This document shows, piece after piece, positions 5,422 to 58,037 of a DNA stretch of 64,000 nt. A program made the position numbers and the translations under genes. The notes under the pieces were generated by a model that was not told where the DNA came from, did not search any database, and saw only the letters and a list, made by a program, of their open reading frames with translations. The stretch lies in the sequence record EU863408; one strand, 5' to 3'. How positions within the stretch are numbered: position 1 is the first letter of the stretch; every line of letters starts with the position of its first letter. This DNA comes from Escherichia phage JSE.

Positions 5422-6009
5422 CTAAATATCTAACCAAGACAAGTCAGATCCGCCCAAGATTTTTTCGACGGCGGATCTATTTTCTTGATGATATAAGTTA
5501 AAACATGGTATCCCATGTCTACGGGCAACATAAACAGCAATTCTAGTTCCTCCCGAAACGATTCCATTAACTTCTTTCGCCCAGAATATCACACAATCTA
5601 CAGGATCATCAAGTGTCTCACCTAAGACTTGAGCAACATTTCTAGAAAACAGATTTTGCATGTATAACGGTATAGAACGAGGATTATCATAAACGTGTTC
5701 TAATTCATCCATCGCCAGATTTTTTTGTTCTAAGGTTTGCCATGCAATAACATCATGACCGTTATGCTTGTGGTCATAAAACTTCCAATTTGGAATGAAA
5801 ATTTTTCTATAATCTGGATCGTAATACTTCATGAAAGCATTGTCCATACCGTAAGCCCCTCCAGAATGCGCTACAACGCGATTTTCTGACAATACCCTCC
5901 CAATGGTACTAGCCATTATCAAAATGTCGCTAGGCGCTTTTCTAGAGCCTATTAAAGCACATCTACGAAGTGGTTTTACTCCAAATAGATCTTGTAACTG
6001 GTCAAACAT
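5422..6009 (-). CDS. SLOG-fold (DprA/Smf-like Rossmann) domain protein
   Basis: 195 aa; LIGSRKAPSD and VVAHSGGAYGMDNAF resemble the DprA/SLOG nucleotide-binding core; occupies the variable slot after gene 24 where T4 has rnlB. Confidence 0.45.
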   Translation of the reverse strand: MFDQLQDLFGVKPLRRCALIGSRKAPSDILIMASTIGRVLSENRVVAHSGGAYGMDNAFMKYYDPDYRKIFIPNWKFYDHKHNGHDVIAWQTLEQKNLAMDELEHVYDNPRSIPLYMQNLFSRNVAQVLGETLDDPVDCVIFWAKEVNGIVSGGTRIAVYVARRHGIPCFNLYHQENRSAVEKILGGSDLSWLDI

Positions 6010-6161
6010 AATATTTCCTCCATAGAAAGCAATATCATACTACAAGTTAATAACAAATACAAGTATCCGCGTAGCGGAAGCGAGCACAGCGAGCAATAAA
6101 ACACTTCCAGTAATTGATTAATAAATGTTCGAAACAAATTTTTATTATTCTATAAGATAAG

Positions 6162-6340
6162 TCTTCGTTTTGATCATAATTTAATCACACATGTAAAAAC
6201 TACACAAAAGGATATCGCTTCGCGAACTCCTACGGAGTATAACATTTGTGTTACAATATGTAGTGATTAATAATTAACCAAAGATACATTTTCTATGTTC
6301 TAAAGATCTTTCTTCGTTTTGATCATAATTTAATCAAACA
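6162..6340. repeat. direct repeat of a 26 bp unit TCTTCGTTTTGATCATAATTTAATCA (6162-6187 and 6312-6337)
   Basis: Two exact copies about 150 bp apart in a roughly 400 bp AT-rich non-coding region; related sequence in inverted orientation at 56395-56500. Confidence 0.6.
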
Positions 6341-6390
6341 GTATTAATATTGTGCACATGTAAACTAAAATTATGTTAATAACAGATAAC

Positions 6391-6418
6391 AAAAAACGCC
6401 GACCCGAAGGACGGCTAA
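6391..6418 (-). terminator. rho-independent terminator
   Basis: GCCGTCC-TTCG-GGTCGGC hairpin then T-run on minus strand. Confidence 0.55.
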
Positions 6419-6424
6419 TGTTAA

Positions 6425-6862
6425 TTATTTGTTGATAACGATCTGATTTCGGCGAATGGTAACATTACTCTTAGAGATGATCAGATCATCCGGCACTACG
6501 TTAGTTTTGTATGGCTGGAAGCGAACAAGCATCTGATTGCGTTTAGACCCTTCCTTAATCTTGATTTCCATCTGGATATTGTTGCCTACGTGAGCAACCG
6601 CAATTTCACCTTTATTCTCATAGACCCACTTGCTGGTAACGTCTCCTGCAAAAGCCTTAATAACTTGCAATGCTTCGTCGTATGCGGTAGAGCTGTGAAC
6701 TTTCAGAAGGCCAGCCGTAGCAAGACGGGAGCAGGTGATCGCCGGAGATTGCCAAACATCAACATTAATTTGCTCAATCAGAGTAACACCGCCCTGATCA
6801 ACTGCTTTGAATGCTTCGAACATTGCCTTTTTCATTGCTACGTGGTTTTTACGGAATTTCAT
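6425..6862 (-). CDS. hypothetical protein
   Basis: 145 aa ORF followed by hairpin terminator at 6391-6418. Confidence 0.6.
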   Translation of the reverse strand: MKFRKNHVAMKKAMFEAFKAVDQGGVTLIEQINVDVWQSPAITCSRLATAGLLKVHSSTAYDEALQVIKAFAGDVTSKWVYENKGEIAVAHVGNNIQMEIKIKEGSKRNQMLVRFQPYKTNVVPDDLIISKSNVTIRRNQIVINK

Positions 6863-48342: not shown

Positions 48343-48372
48343 TATTCCTTCTTTTGATTAATTTACTAGACT

Positions 48373-48400
48373 ATTATACAGATTTAAATTTACTTGTCAA
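48373..48400 (-). promoter_or_regulatory. sigma70-like promoter for gene 32 (TTGACA-N16-TATAAT)
   Basis: Canonical hexamers about 30 nt upstream of the gene 32 start. Confidence 0.55.
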
Positions 48401-49077
48401 CTATTTGTTTCTGTTTTTAATTGAGATATTTCTTTACACTCTTTAACTACTTTAACAAATAATGCTCTTGCTTTTGCGGCGTCAATAACAAGTAGTTTCT
48501 TGTACGCCTTCATTTTAACACTATAAGTTTGCCAAATCAAGTCTTTGGCTACCTTGTCGTGTTCGTCGATTATATTTAGAAAGCTATCTAACAACATAAA
48601 CGACTCAAACGATATAATCCGATTTTGCAGTAGTTTAAAGATACCGCTAGTTTCGGTTGCGGGATTGTATGTAATTAGCTCTTTAAGAGTAACCCCGCGT
48701 TTCTCGGAGAAGTATACCAGACTTTTAATGTCATCGTCAAATCGTGTTGCTGCATCGGTTATCTTTCCTATGTATTCCATATAAAAGCCGTATGCGTCAA
48801 CATCAGTGATTTCACCTACCCATGCATCGGTATTAGCTACCAGATTGCTTAGGAATAGGAAGTATAATTCTCTTAGATTGTACTTTTCCGCTAATTTTGC
48901 GAAATAATACTTATCTCTGCGTTTATTGAATGCGGCATCAGACAACCGCATCCTCCAATTGTATTTTACGCAATCATAACGCCCGTTCATGTGAGCTTTC
49001 ATCATGCAATATAACATATACACAGATTTAGCATTAATTCGCATATCTGGATCTGGAGGAAGACGGTTTCTGATCAT
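48397..49077 (-). CDS. 59: helicase loader gp59
   Basis: Colinear with T4 gp59 (NGKYD.IKYNW.MR.SDAA..KRRDKY, IFKLLQ..IISFE.F.LLDSFLNIID). Confidence 0.9.
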   Translation of the reverse strand: MIRNRLPPDPDMRINAKSVYMLYCMMKAHMNGRYDCVKYNWRMRLSDAAFNKRRDKYYFAKLAEKYNLRELYFLFLSNLVANTDAWVGEITDVDAYGFYMEYIGKITDAATRFDDDIKSLVYFSEKRGVTLKELITYNPATETSGIFKLLQNRIISFESFMLLDSFLNIIDEHDKVAKDLIWQTYSVKMKAYKKLLVIDAAKARALFVKVVKECKEISQLKTETNS

Positions 49078-56344: not shown

Positions 56345-56356
56345 CATTTTTAACAA

Positions 56357-56386
56357 GCCGATCCTCGTGGTCGGCTTTATTTTTAT
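56357..56386 (+). terminator. terminator after gene 35
   Basis: AGCCGATC-CTCGTG-GTCGGCT then TTATTTTT. Confidence 0.6.
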
Positions 56387-56505
56387 ACAGTTGGTTAAAA
56401 CATAACCGAAACGAAGAAAGATCTTTAGAATAATAGAAAATTTGTTTCGGTTAAAAAATAGTCAGTGCCTACGGCACGTCGCGAAGCGATATTTTGTTAA
56501 CATTC

Positions 56506-56513
56506 TATAAATA
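56506..56513 (+). promoter_or_regulatory. T4-type late promoter TATAAATA upstream of gene 36
   Basis: Exact TATAAATA about 34 nt before ATG 56547. Confidence 0.55.
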
Positions 56514-56546: not shown

Positions 56547-58037
56547 ATGGCAGATTTGAAACATGGATCTACTGTAGGCGGATCTCCCATTTGGACGCAA
56601 GGAAACTTGACGATCCAGCCAGCGGGGGATCAGCTTTTCTACAAAGGTCATAAAATCTATACCGCTTTTGATAAACCTTCGGCTGCCGATTTTGATGCTG
56701 TTAGTGCTAAAGACGGTGGCACATTTCAAAAGCAGGTCCATTTTGAGGAAGGTTTAAGCGTAGGTAGCGCATCGGCTGGAGAAACCAAAAAGAACGGGAT
56801 CTTTAAAGGAAATAGTGATGCGGCTAACTTTGATGGTGTAAGTTGGGGTTTGCATTCGTGGAAATCTATTGGTTTTGTTAATGCCCGTGATGGCGTTATC
56901 ATGGCTTATATTGACACTACCACAGGTGATTTTAAAACTAAAGGGACTATCGAAGGGACAACCATTAAAGACACAGGTCAACGCGTCTATAGCCCTGTTA
57001 ATAAACCAACGAATAATGATTTAGATTTGGTGTCTCGTCGCGGTGATACCCTCACAGGAACATATAATTTAAACACTGTCACTGTTAAACTATCGGTTGA
57101 TTCGAAATTAATTGCAAGGGAACGTGATTTAATTAATTTTGATGCGACTAAGATCTATTATGGTAACGTTCTTGATACGTTGGTCTTCCGAAGTAAAGAT
57201 GAGCCTACCATTTTTGTTAATGGCAGAGAAGGTCGTTTTTATCACACCAACAATAAACCAACTAAAGCCGATGTTGGGCTAGGCAATGTCACCAATGATG
57301 CACAGGTTAAACGTGCTGGTGATATTATGGAAGGTAACTTGCAAGCGCCTAGAATGTTGGCGACAAACGATCCGGCTGGTCCTAATGAATTGGTTCGTTT
57401 GAGCTACTTTGAGAGAAAATCAATGGTAGCAAATCCAACCATCATTGGAAACGTTGATTGGAACACTCTTATTAATCGCGGTATCTATCGTGTGGAAAAT
57501 GCTGGGTCAGGTACTAATAAACCGTCTGATAGCTATTATAACGGCGTTTTGATGGTATATCGCCCAGAAGATGCGGTCGGTACTCGTCGAATTGTTCAGG
57601 TGTATTATCCTGAATCTATTGACCATCCGATGTGCTGGCGTTCGTGTTCTAATGAATCATGGACTGCATGGAACTATGTAGATCACCGTAAATTAGCCGA
57701 TATTCGCTATGTTAACGTAACTGGCGATACCATGACAGGACCGTTAACTGTTCCGGCTGCAAACGGTGTTAGAACAGCTAGAGGTGCATATAATGGTGAT
57801 AACTACTATGCTGGGTTAAATAGTGCCGATGGCACGGCTATGATTCACCGTATCAGCGATATTAAAGCCACTGAAAAATTGGGTATTACACATGATTCGA
57901 AAGCTGTTTTCGTTAAATCGCGTGGAAATACTCAAGCCACAGACCGCTATGAACTTTACCACGAAGGGCATAAACCTACCCCTGCCGAAGTTGGCGCGGT
58001 TCCACTTAATGCGGTGATTGATTTTGGTACTTTCTAA
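56547..58037 (+). CDS. 36: long tail fibre distal-half proximal subunit gp36 (enlarged)
   Basis: N-terminus MADLKHGSTVGGSPIWTQGN ... PAGD..FYK matches T4 gp36; 496 aa versus 221 aa in T4; TATAAATA at 56506-56513. Confidence 0.8.
   Translation: MADLKHGSTVGGSPIWTQGNLTIQPAGDQLFYKGHKIYTAFDKPSAADFDAVSAKDGGTFQKQVHFEEGLSVGSASAGETKKNGIFKGNSDAANFDGVSWGLHSWKSIGFVNARDGVIMAYIDTTTGDFKTKGTIEGTTIKDTGQRVYSPVNKPTNNDLDLVSRRGDTLTGTYNLNTVTVKLSVDSKLIARERDLINFDATKIYYGNVLDTLVFRSKDEPTIFVNGREGRFYHTNNKPTKADVGLGNVTNDAQVKRAGDIMEGNLQAPRMLATNDPAGPNELVRLSYFERKSMVANPTIIGNVDWNTLINRGIYRVENAGSGTNKPSDSYYNGVLMVYRPEDAVGTRRIVQVYYPESIDHPMCWRSCSNESWTAWNYVDHRKLADIRYVNVTGDTMTGPLTVPAANGVRTARGAYNGDNYYAGLNSADGTAMIHRISDIKATEKLGITHDSKAVFVKSRGNTQATDRYELYHEGHKPTPAEVGAVPLNAVIDFGTF

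What the first reader, a model, noticed from the sequence alone, without database searches (positions are those of the whole stretch)
6150..6340. Intergenic element present in inverted copies at two loci
The non-coding region at 6150-6340 contains two copies of a 26 bp unit. Its reverse complement closely resembles the gp35-gp36 intergenic region at 56395-56500, which shares AAACGAAGAAAGATCTTTAGAA and CGCGAAGCGATAT blocks. The motif contains an AAAGATCTTT palindrome flanked by CCGAAACGAA and TTTGTTTCGG inverted arms. At 56.4 kb it sits just upstream of a late promoter. A shared, partly duplicated regulatory or recombination element at two distant, oppositely oriented loci is unexpected.
Basis: seen in the sequence. 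Interest (0 to 1): 0.5.

Follow-up and report, generated by a model that had tools for sequence, protein, structure and literature searches.

The report
Dispersed hairpin cassette between phage genes
A conserved, very AT-rich 73-base hairpin-forming module sits in three gaps between genes of an RB49-like T4-type phage; one relative's genome has a large inversion whose ends lie in two copies, and what the module does is still unknown.

Summary
The window is a Krischvirus (RB49-like coliphage). It holds three copies of a 73-nt module bounded by TGRTTA...TARTCA: A at 6264-6336(-), B at 6115-6187(-) and C at 56392-56464(+). A fourth copy, D, lies outside the window, upstream of gene 3. The copies are inverted on the map but all point the same way as the next gene. 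Each sits just upstream of that gene's promoter and is followed by one or two short GC hairpins.

The stems show compensatory changes, and a 15-column core is invariant in all lineages. It matches no Rfam family, contains no sigma-70 promoter and holds no ORF. A homologue sits in a gene-free control region of an E. coli prophage family that also shares genes with Krischvirus.

Copies C and D exchange sequence. In phage LF73P4 a reciprocal C x D crossover inverts about half the genome, unless this is a misassembly. A homing endonuclease gene is inserted at D's edge in some genomes.

My best reading is a promoter-less relative of the PeSL cassettes: a structured boundary between transcription units that also serves as portable homology for recombination. 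The biochemical function is unproven. A role as a replication origin is not excluded.

The parts
6391..6416 (-). Intrinsic terminator of the upstream gene ORF165c: AGCCGTCCTTCGGGTCGGC followed by a T run, with a UUCG-type loop.
   Evidence: Read directly from the sequence. The equivalent position is annotated as a terminator in the Makalu_001 record.
6264..6336 (-). Copy A of the 73-nt module: TGATTAA...TTAATCA. It has an outer stem P1 and an inner stem P2 (TGATCAAA/TTTGGTTA), and its conserved core is at 6298-6320.
   Evidence: blastn, alignment A1, covariance-model hit at 6249-6351, 85.9 bits, coordinates.
6215..6238 (-). Two short GC hairpins after copy A: ACTCC-GTA-GGAGT (6226-6238) and TCGC-GAA-GCGA (6215-6225).
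   Evidence: The same pair, with a different first stem, follows copies C and D.
6115..6187 (-). Copy B of the module, a diverged tandem duplicate of A offset by 149 bp. Its inner stem is degenerate.
   Evidence: (78.7 bits).
6066..6078 (-). GC hairpin after copy B, TCCGC-TAC-GCGGA, followed by a T-rich tract. It resembles a terminator.
   Evidence: Flagged by the terminator scan. Coordinates.
6034..6062 (-). Candidate weak sigma-70 promoter for ORF164c, TTGTAT-17-TATGAT. This is inferred only.
   Evidence: Read from the sequence. It falls below the threshold of the promoter scan.
56355..56384 (+). Intrinsic terminator of gene 35.
   Evidence: Terminator scan. Annotated as a terminator in the Makalu and GEC-3S records.
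56392..56464 (+). Copy C of the module: TGGTTAA...TAGTCA. The inner stem is TAACCGAAACGAA/TTTGTTTCGGTTA, and the core is at 56408-56430.
   Evidence: (hit at 56378-56479, 107.6 bits).
56465..56490 (+). Two GC hairpins after copy C: GTGCC-TAC-GGCAC and GTCGC-GAA-GCGAT, then ATTTTGTT.
   Evidence: Across relatives the stem is fixed while the loop varies (TAC, GTA or TCC).
56506..56513 (+). T4-type late promoter TATAAATA of gene 36. The gene 36 ATG is at 56547.
   Evidence: That TATAAATA is the T4 late-promoter consensus comes from established knowledge.

Best explanation
The element is a small dispersed intergenic cassette specific to Krischvirus, with four copies per genome and a homologue in an E. 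coli prophage family. It has two parts. The first is a 73-nt, extremely AT-rich module whose nested inverted repeats can close a long imperfect hairpin around an invariant purine-rich core (GAAGA-NNN-ATCTT-TAGAA). The second is one or two short GC-clamp hairpins.

It occupies gaps between co-directional transcription units, immediately upstream of the next unit's own promoter. I read it as a promoter-less relative of the PeSL terminator/promoter cassettes of RB49-type phages. On this reading it is a structured boundary that ends or insulates transcription coming from upstream before the next promoter. Because the same roughly 100 bp recurs at several loci, it also acts as portable homology for recombination (gene conversion, inversion, cassette insertion).

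Shown: the repeat family, its anatomy, the conservation pattern, its position relative to terminators and promoters, and the exchange of sequence between copies.

Inferred: that the hairpin forms in vivo, on which strand or molecule it forms, and the boundary or insulator function.
For: - Family and anatomy.
- Position: all four copies are co-oriented with the downstream gene. They lie 25-45 nt upstream of its promoter for C and D, and upstream of a candidate promoter for B. The promoters are late TATAAATA for gene 36, AATAAATA for gene 3, and TTGACA-17-TAGATT where a homing endonuclease gene is inserted after D.
- Upstream terminators: A and C follow the strong terminator of the upstream gene.
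- Terminator-like hairpins: the scan flags the last GC hairpin of B, C and D as terminator-like, against 0.3 expected per region.
- Long hairpin: 89% of cells pair, against 26-51% when partners are slid. Pair 29:77 takes AU, CG, GU and GC in four lineages, and pair 31:75 takes CG, UG and UA.
- Conservation within paralogues: the 15 core columns never vary in five lineages (p 9e-5 against other unpaired columns). Stems vary less than loops (p 0.009).
- Recombination: LF73P4 carries both reciprocal C/D hybrid junctions. C/D conversion mosaics are seen in PHB13 and in a metagenome contig. The second LF73P4 inversion lies at a classic PeSL pair, which shows the same behaviour for the known cassettes.
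- PeSL definition and proposed role: PMC2839356.
Against: - No sigma-70 promoter lies in or just upstream of the module, so it fails the defining PeSL feature.
- The GC hairpins are weak terminators: 4-5 bp stems, and copy A's T run is 6 nt away.
- A and C already follow strong terminators, so a second boundary seems redundant.
- In D and in the prophage no co-directional gene or promoter lies directly upstream, so sense-strand transcripts may be scarce.
- Insulation or plain homology does not explain an invariant 15-column core.
- The consensus folding energy is weak, -1.4 kcal/mol.
- The covariation rests on only 4-5 independent lineages.
- A.C mismatches at pair 33:73 weaken the argument that the structure is specific to one strand.
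- The LF73P4 inversions lie exactly at repeats, where an assembler can mis-orient segments.
Confidence: 0.4

Rival explanations
1. Replication-origin module. The AT-rich hairpin module is the DNA-unwinding or priming element of Krischvirus origins. It would work through local melting or an R-loop, with the hairpins forming in the displaced sense strand.
For: - D, B and A are the three AT-richest 100-bp windows of the whole 164-kb RB49 genome, and locus 1 is the AT-richest 300 bp.
- The three loci lie in late-gene regions, 1-6 kb from strand-switch points. They sit near the RB49 counterparts of the genes that mark T4 oriE (gene 5), oriF (uvsY) and oriG (gene 34) (review PMC3016281).
- T4 oriF and oriG each need only about 100 bp, comprising a promoter plus an AT-rich unwinding element.
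- The prophage homologue lies about 375 bp from a cluster of about 8 GTGTAGGTTT iterons in a gene-free region.
- The core is purine-rich on the sense strand.
Against: - No promoter reads into the module, and a promoter is the essential half of T4 R-loop origins.
- A and C lie behind strong terminators.
- T4 unwinding elements need no specific sequence, so an invariant core is not predicted.
- AT-richness is common in intergenic DNA.
- The positional parallel rests on three loci and a loose distance criterion.
- There are no functional data.
Confidence: 0.15
2. Cis-acting RNA element in read-through polycistronic transcripts. The hairpin would display the conserved AU/purine-rich core as a processing site (for example for RNase E) or a protein-binding site, and the GC hairpins would stabilise the resulting RNA ends.
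For: - Compensatory and G.U-type changes occur in the stems on the gene-sense strand.
- Variation is concentrated in predicted loops.
- All copies are co-oriented with transcription.
- In RNA folds of the sense strand, C and D are more stable than their shuffles (z about -3.2 and -3.3).
Against: - No Rfam match, even at permissive thresholds.
- The late promoters fire downstream of the cassette, so the main mRNAs of genes 36 and 3 lack it.
- No sense-strand promoter precedes the prophage copy or D.
- The reverse strand of D folds as well (z -3.9), and that of B folds better (-2.3 against -0.1).
- The consensus folding energy is weak.
Confidence: 0.15
3. Double-stranded DNA binding site for a sequence-specific protein, host or phage. 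Two dyads, TGATTA-N5-TGATCA and TGGTTA-N5-TAATCA, flank the invariant core and would control the adjacent rightward promoter and, in D and the prophage, the divergent leftward one.
For: - The invariant core implies sequence-specific recognition.
- D and the prophage copy both abut a divergent leftward gene.
- A separate perfect dyad, TTGATTAATTATTAATC, resembling the 3' dyad of copy A, lies near the rightward promoters of the prophage region (E 0.012).
Against: - Mirrored changes in half-sites between copies in one genome fit base-pairing better than one protein's specificity.
- I found no match to the IHF, CRP, Fis, DnaA or Fur consensus sequences, checked by eye only.
- No A-tract phasing.
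- No candidate binding protein was identified among the genes shared by Krischvirus and the prophage.
Confidence: 0.15
4. Selfish or relic DNA. The module would be a MITE/PATE-like mobile unit, or a footprint of homing-endonuclease cassettes, with no function for the phage.
For: - The unit is sharply bounded by short inverted repeats.
- It is multi-copy and occurs in two kinds of phage: virulent Krischvirus and an E. coli prophage family.
- An HNH-AP2 endonuclease gene abuts D in AV108 and phiS.
- The gene 2/3 gap is only 81-86 bp, without the module, in Karamvirus and Gelderlandvirus.
- The two local hairpins are in direct orientation, as in IS200/IS605 ends.
Against: - No target-site duplication.
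- No transposase in either phage.
- Only four copies, at the same loci in all 57 genomes.
- The interior core, not the ends, is the most conserved part.
- The A/B tandem pair is kept in every genome although it is only 78% identical.
Confidence: 0.1

Closest known systems
PeSL (promoter-early stem-loop) cassettes of RB49/phi1 and other T4-like phages (Arbiol et al. 2010, PMC2839356; Comeau et al. 2014, PMC4122927)
   Same: - Same phage genus.
- About 100-bp conserved intergenic cassettes with an AT-rich tract plus stem-loops next to a promoter.
- Present in multiple copies.
- Proposed, and here observed, to be crossover points. The second LF73P4 inversion joins two near-identical PeSLs.
   Different: - There is no sigma-70 -35/-10 in the module. 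C and D sit beside late promoters, and B beside only a weak candidate sigma-70 promoter.
- It lies in the conserved virion-gene blocks, not the hyperplastic regions.
- The stem-loops are not the polyG/polyC type.
- It contains a 73-nt module bounded by inverted repeats with an invariant core.
- It has a homologue in a prophage.
T4 R-loop origins oriF(uvsY) and oriG(34) (Kreuzer and Brister 2010, PMC3016281)
   Same: - Scale of about 100 bp and extreme AT-richness.
- Location in late-gene regions near strand-switch points.
- The T4 origins are also recombination hot spots (the hot-spot point rests on my own knowledge).
   Different: - T4 origins are defined by a MotA-dependent promoter upstream of the unwinding element. 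RB49 has no motA annotated, and no promoter reads into the module.
- T4 origins share no sequence motif, whereas these copies do.
Conserved 'linker' or boundary sequences invoked for modular exchange in lambdoid phages (the Susskind and Botstein module theory, cited in PMC2839356; from my own knowledge)
   Same: A short conserved non-coding patch at gene-module boundaries, shared by otherwise mosaic phages. The prophage region around the module is itself mosaic, with breakpoints flanking it.
   Different: Linkers are not expected to have hairpin covariation or an invariant core. Here the sharing crosses from a virulent T4-type phage to a temperate phage.
MITEs and IS200/IS605-derived palindrome-associated elements
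   Same: A small unit bounded by inverted repeats, with hairpins that may be strand-specific, in intergenic positions.
   Different: There is no target duplication, no cognate transposase, a fixed low copy number, and a conserved interior rather than conserved ends.

Membership tests
PeSL cassette | A strong sigma-70-type early promoter (-35/-10) within the motif | tested here: not met
   The promoter scans find none on the sense strand in or next to A, B, C or D. Only where the endonuclease gene is inserted does the junction create TTGACA-17-TAGATT.
PeSL cassette | A stem-loop able to terminate or attenuate transcription | tested here: inconclusive
   GC hairpins follow every copy. The simple scan flags those of B, C and D as terminator-like. 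The stems are only 4-5 bp, and no functional test was possible.
PeSL cassette | An AT-rich tract, intergenic position and about 100 bp of conservation | tested here: met
   GC content is 0.18-0.31, all copies are intergenic, and 73-105 nt are conserved.
PeSL cassette | Located mainly in hyperplastic regions upstream of ORFans | tested here: not met
   The copies lie between genes 2 and 3, between 35 and 36, and beside gene 24, all within the conserved structural modules.
PeSL cassette | Serves as a site of recombination between copies | tested here: met
   Reciprocal C x D hybrid junctions in LF73P4 and conversion mosaics. Caveat: an assembly artefact is not excluded.
T4-type R-loop origin (oriF/oriG) | A promoter whose transcript enters the unwinding element | tested here: not met
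   No sigma-70-like promoter lies upstream, and no motA is annotated in RB49.
T4-type R-loop origin (oriF/oriG) | An AT-rich DNA-unwinding element | tested here: met
   D, B and A are the three AT-richest 100-bp windows of the RB49 genome. This is compositional evidence only.
T4-type R-loop origin (oriF/oriG) | Drives replication of a plasmid, or early DNA synthesis, during infection | not testable with these tools
   Needs an experiment or marker-frequency data.
Known RNA family (Rfam 15) | A covariance-model match at or near the gathering score | tested here: not met
   No hit at the gathering threshold in the window. Permissive scans of both loci and the prophage region gave only chance-level hits.
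MITE | Terminal inverted repeats plus a target-site duplication | tested here: not met
   Inverted repeats bound the unit, but the flanks of A, B, C, D and the prophage copy share no direct duplication.
Intrinsic terminator | A GC-rich stem immediately followed by a U run | tested here: inconclusive
   The upstream-gene terminator at 56355-56384 passes the scan. The one at 6391-6416 was read from the sequence and is annotated as a terminator in the Makalu_001 record; the scan did not list it. The cassette's own hairpins are marginal: flagged for B, C and D, not for A.

The most novel reading that the evidence does not exclude
The four modules are the cis-acting cores of Krischvirus replication origins: AT-rich unwinding elements whose sense-strand hairpins and purine-rich core set up priming. 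This would give T4-type phages that lack MotA a shared origin motif, at loci that parallel T4 oriE, oriF and oriG. The same module would serve the iteron-bearing control region of an E. coli prophage family that trades genes with these phages.
Probability: 0.12. Interest if true: 0.8.

Novelty: new variant of a known kind. Interest (0 to 1): 0.5.

Why it matters
Dispersed non-coding cassettes are thought to drive module shuffling in T4-type phages, which are widely used in phage therapy. This one extends that idea in three ways.

First, it extends it from the variable early regions into the conserved virion-gene blocks, next to late promoters.

Second, it provides a concrete candidate case: one genome record, LF73P4, shows a large inversion with both of its junctions inside the cassette. 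Whether that is a true rearrangement or a misassembly can be checked with long reads.

Third, the same module occurs in a temperate E. coli prophage that also carries gp37/gp38-like tail-fibre genes. That marks a route for exchanging host-range genes between virulent and temperate phages.

The invariant core inside a covarying hairpin points to a specific, still unknown, recognition event. Origins of replication have not been defined for these phages, so the module is a testable candidate.

Tried and rejected
- **Known RNA families.** Rfam gave nothing, at gathering or permissive thresholds.
- **Promoter inside the unit.** Neither strand has a conserved -35/-10 pair or a TATAAATA (plus reading the sequence by eye).
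- **Small ORFs.** The only candidates are MIKTKKDL-type mini-ORFs in A and B. They are absent from C, and all frames contain stops.
- **Curved DNA.** There is no consistent 10-11 bp phasing of AA steps.
- **Further, more diverged copies.** A covariance model (R1) found only A-D in the RB49 genome and the window, and one copy per prophage. It found none upstream of gene 3 in Karamvirus or Gelderlandvirus.
- **Origin in a host gene.** The only E. coli matches are in prophages.
- **Neighbouring genes carried along with the module.** The genes next to the prophage copy have no homologue beside the Krischvirus copies.
- **Wasted or uninformative scans.** A first 14-base pattern scan of viral contigs returned only chance hits. 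The scan of genome contigs also returned chance hits only.
- **Host-factor sites.** I compared the module by eye with the IHF, CRP, Fis, DnaA, Fur, RegA and Hin/Gin-site consensus sequences. The resemblances were weak and not conserved across copies.

Full report
**What the window is.** Both loci match 57 Krischvirus genomes (RB49, phi1, GEC-3S and others) at 92-100% identity and match nothing else in the phage collection.

Locus 1 is the 415-bp gap 6010-6424 between ORF165c (6425-6862, minus strand) and the DprA-like ORF164c (5422-6009, minus strand), next to gene 24. Locus 2 is the roughly 200-bp gap between genes 35 and 36.

**Checking the observation.** A sensitive blastn of each gap against the whole window gives as its only strong non-self hits the other copies, with E values of 2e-11, 7e-11 and 2e-8. 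The next best hit has E 0.003. The similarity is therefore real and is not AT-rich noise.

When each gap is read in the direction of its genes, both have the same layout: stop codon, strong terminator, module, short GC hairpins, promoter, next gene. The 'inversion' only reflects the opposite gene strands.

**Anatomy.**
- The homologous unit is 73 nt and sharply bounded by TGRTTA...TARTCA. Copy A is at 6264-6336(-), B at 6115-6187(-) and C at 56392-56464(+).
- A and B are an old tandem pair, offset by 149 bp and 78% identical.
- The unit can form an outer stem P1 and an inner stem P2 around a purine-rich core.
- On an alignment of 28 distinct copies, 89% of cells pair, against 26-51% when the partners are slid by 1-3 columns. 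Pair 29:77 takes AU, CG, GU and GC in different lineages, and pair 31:75 takes CG, UG and UA.
- An alternative fold with two local hairpins fits less well.
- The thermodynamic consensus is weak, -1.4 kcal/mol.
- Within each paralogue lineage the 15 core columns never vary, and stems vary less than loops (p 9e-5 and 0.009).
- Each copy is followed by GC hairpins with 3-nt loops. In C copies the stem is fixed while the loop reads TAC, GTA or TCC.
- The terminator scan flags the last hairpin of B, C and D.
- C is followed by the late promoter TATAAATA at 56506-56513.

**Census.**
- A fourth copy, D, lies outside the window in all 57 genomes. It sits between a small divergent ORF (ORF130w) and late gene 3, and it is about 96% identical to C.
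- A covariance model finds only A-D in the complete RB49 genome. It finds nothing upstream of gene 3 in Karamvirus or Gelderlandvirus, where the gene 2/3 gap is only 81-86 bp.
- D, B and A are the three AT-richest 100-bp windows of the RB49 genome.

**A homologue outside the genus.**
- The unit matches 53 E. coli genomes at about 77% identity over 75-81 nt (E 1e-7 in 28 Gb).
- The match lies in a prophage of about 36 kb inserted in hicB. It sits at the left end of a 1.26-kb gene-free divergent region.
- That region also holds many GC triloop hairpins, one of which is very like the pair after copy A. It also holds about 8 GTGTAGGTTT iterons and two rightward sigma-70 promoters.
- Homology with Krischvirus is confined to the unit.
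- The surrounding prophage DNA is mosaic, with breakpoints flanking the unit.
- The prophage and RB49 also share gp37- and gp38-like fibre genes, an ORF260c homologue whose DNA appears close to RB49's over part of its length (92-97% identity in short alternate-frame matches), and two ORFans. Exchange between the two phage kinds is therefore ongoing.
- Pattern scans of the viral and metagenome collections recovered only these two lineages.

**Recombination.**
- C and D show conversion mosaics. A D copy in PHB13 carries the TATAG variant seen in some C copies, and a D copy in a metagenome contig carries the C-type GAA loop.
- In Krischvirus LF73P4 the C locus is a chimera. A whole-genome comparison shows two inversions relative to RB49.
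- The first inversion has both reciprocal junctions inside the cassette: gp35-module-gene 3 and ORF130w-module-gene 36.
- The second joins two near-identical classic PeSLs, at 43.0 and 123.25 kb in RB49 coordinates.
- Each new junction keeps promoter and gene together. Both inversions lie at repeats, however, so a misassembly cannot be excluded.
- In AV108, phiS and one metagenomic genome, an HNH_3/AP2 homing endonuclease gene with its own promoter is inserted exactly at D's 3' edge.

**What it is not.**
- It matches no Rfam family.
- It contains no sigma-70 or late promoter.
- It holds no conserved ORF.
- It shows no A-tract phasing.
- It has no target-site duplication.

**Mechanism.** The position, the hairpins and the behaviour of the copies fit a promoter-less relative of the PeSL terminator/promoter cassettes (PMC2839356). 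On that reading it is a structured boundary ahead of the next promoter that also provides portable homology. I give this 0.4.

It does not explain the invariant core or the apparent lack of sense transcription at D and in the prophage. Three rivals stay open at about 0.15 each: an origin or unwinding element, an RNA processing or binding element, and a duplex protein site. The origin reading rests on the AT-richness, the iteron neighbourhood and the positional parallel with T4 oriE, oriF and oriG (PMC3016281). Selfish or relic DNA gets about 0.1.

**Novelty.** The element is a member of the general kind 'dispersed intergenic cassette of RB49-type phages'. It fails the defining PeSL feature, and it has a distinct architecture and a cross-phage distribution. 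I therefore rate it a new variant of a known kind.

Noticed in passing
OZ035795.1 (LF73P4; loci L189-L192), about 37.7-39.8 kb and 83.2-83.3 kb; RB49 43.0 kb and 123.25 kb: The second inversion in LF73P4 has its breakpoints in two near-identical classic PeSLs: TTGACA, then a GGGGATC...GATCCCC stem-loop, then TATACT. Their 5' UTR carries ATCAAAACGAA, an 11-mer also found in the module. CAAAACGAA occurs 8 times in RB49 against 1.9 expected.
   Followed up: partly
L131 1858-2453 (AV108); also phiS and IMGVR_UViG_3300045988_033703 (L125): An HNH_3 + AP2 homing endonuclease gene with its own promoter is inserted between copy D and gene 3. The junction reads CAATTG|ACATTAT, so the -35 TTGACA is formed across the junction.
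   Followed up: partly
L136 5885-7148 (E. coli ETEC4085 prophage): A 1.26-kb gene-free divergent region holds the module, many GC triloop hairpins, repeated AATCCCTTTC motifs, about 8 GTGTAGGTTT iterons, two sigma-70 promoters, three TATAAATA octamers and an attenuator-like hairpin before the first rightward gene. It looks like an origin or control region, and it has no match among sequenced phages apart from the module itself.
   Followed up: partly
L178 (prophage) compared with the RB49 genome: The prophage carries gp37-like (38% over 919 aa) and gp38-like (49%) tail-fibre genes. It also has an LprI-like gene 56% identical to RB49 ORF260c, with 92-97% identity in short alternate-frame matches that suggest near-identical DNA in part of it, and homologues of ORF190c and ORF194c. 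This points to exchange of host-range genes between a virulent phage and a temperate one.
   Followed up: partly
window 56465-56477 and the equivalent position in relatives: The loop of the first GC hairpin after copy C is TAC, its inverse GTA, or TCC in different genomes, while the stem is unchanged. The inverted loop is the signature of template switching at a DNA hairpin.
   Followed up: no
window 48362-48461: This 100-bp stretch ties with copies A and B as the AT-richest in the window (GC 0.21). It corresponds to about 140.66 kb in RB49, near ORF239c and gene 32. It was not examined.
   Followed up: no
window 5422-6009 (-): NCBI names ORF164c, the gene downstream of copies A and B, as DprA-like. 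It reaches only a sub-threshold Pfam DNA_processg_A match (22 bits against a cut-off of 29.6).
   Followed up: partly
L256 805-885 and L257 800-885: In Karamvirus and Gelderlandvirus the short gene 2/3 gap holds a different hairpin, CTTCTTCCGG...CCGGAAGAAC, with a TTGATT-rich loop. It shows no covariance-model match to the module. Distant homology was neither established nor excluded.
   Followed up: partly
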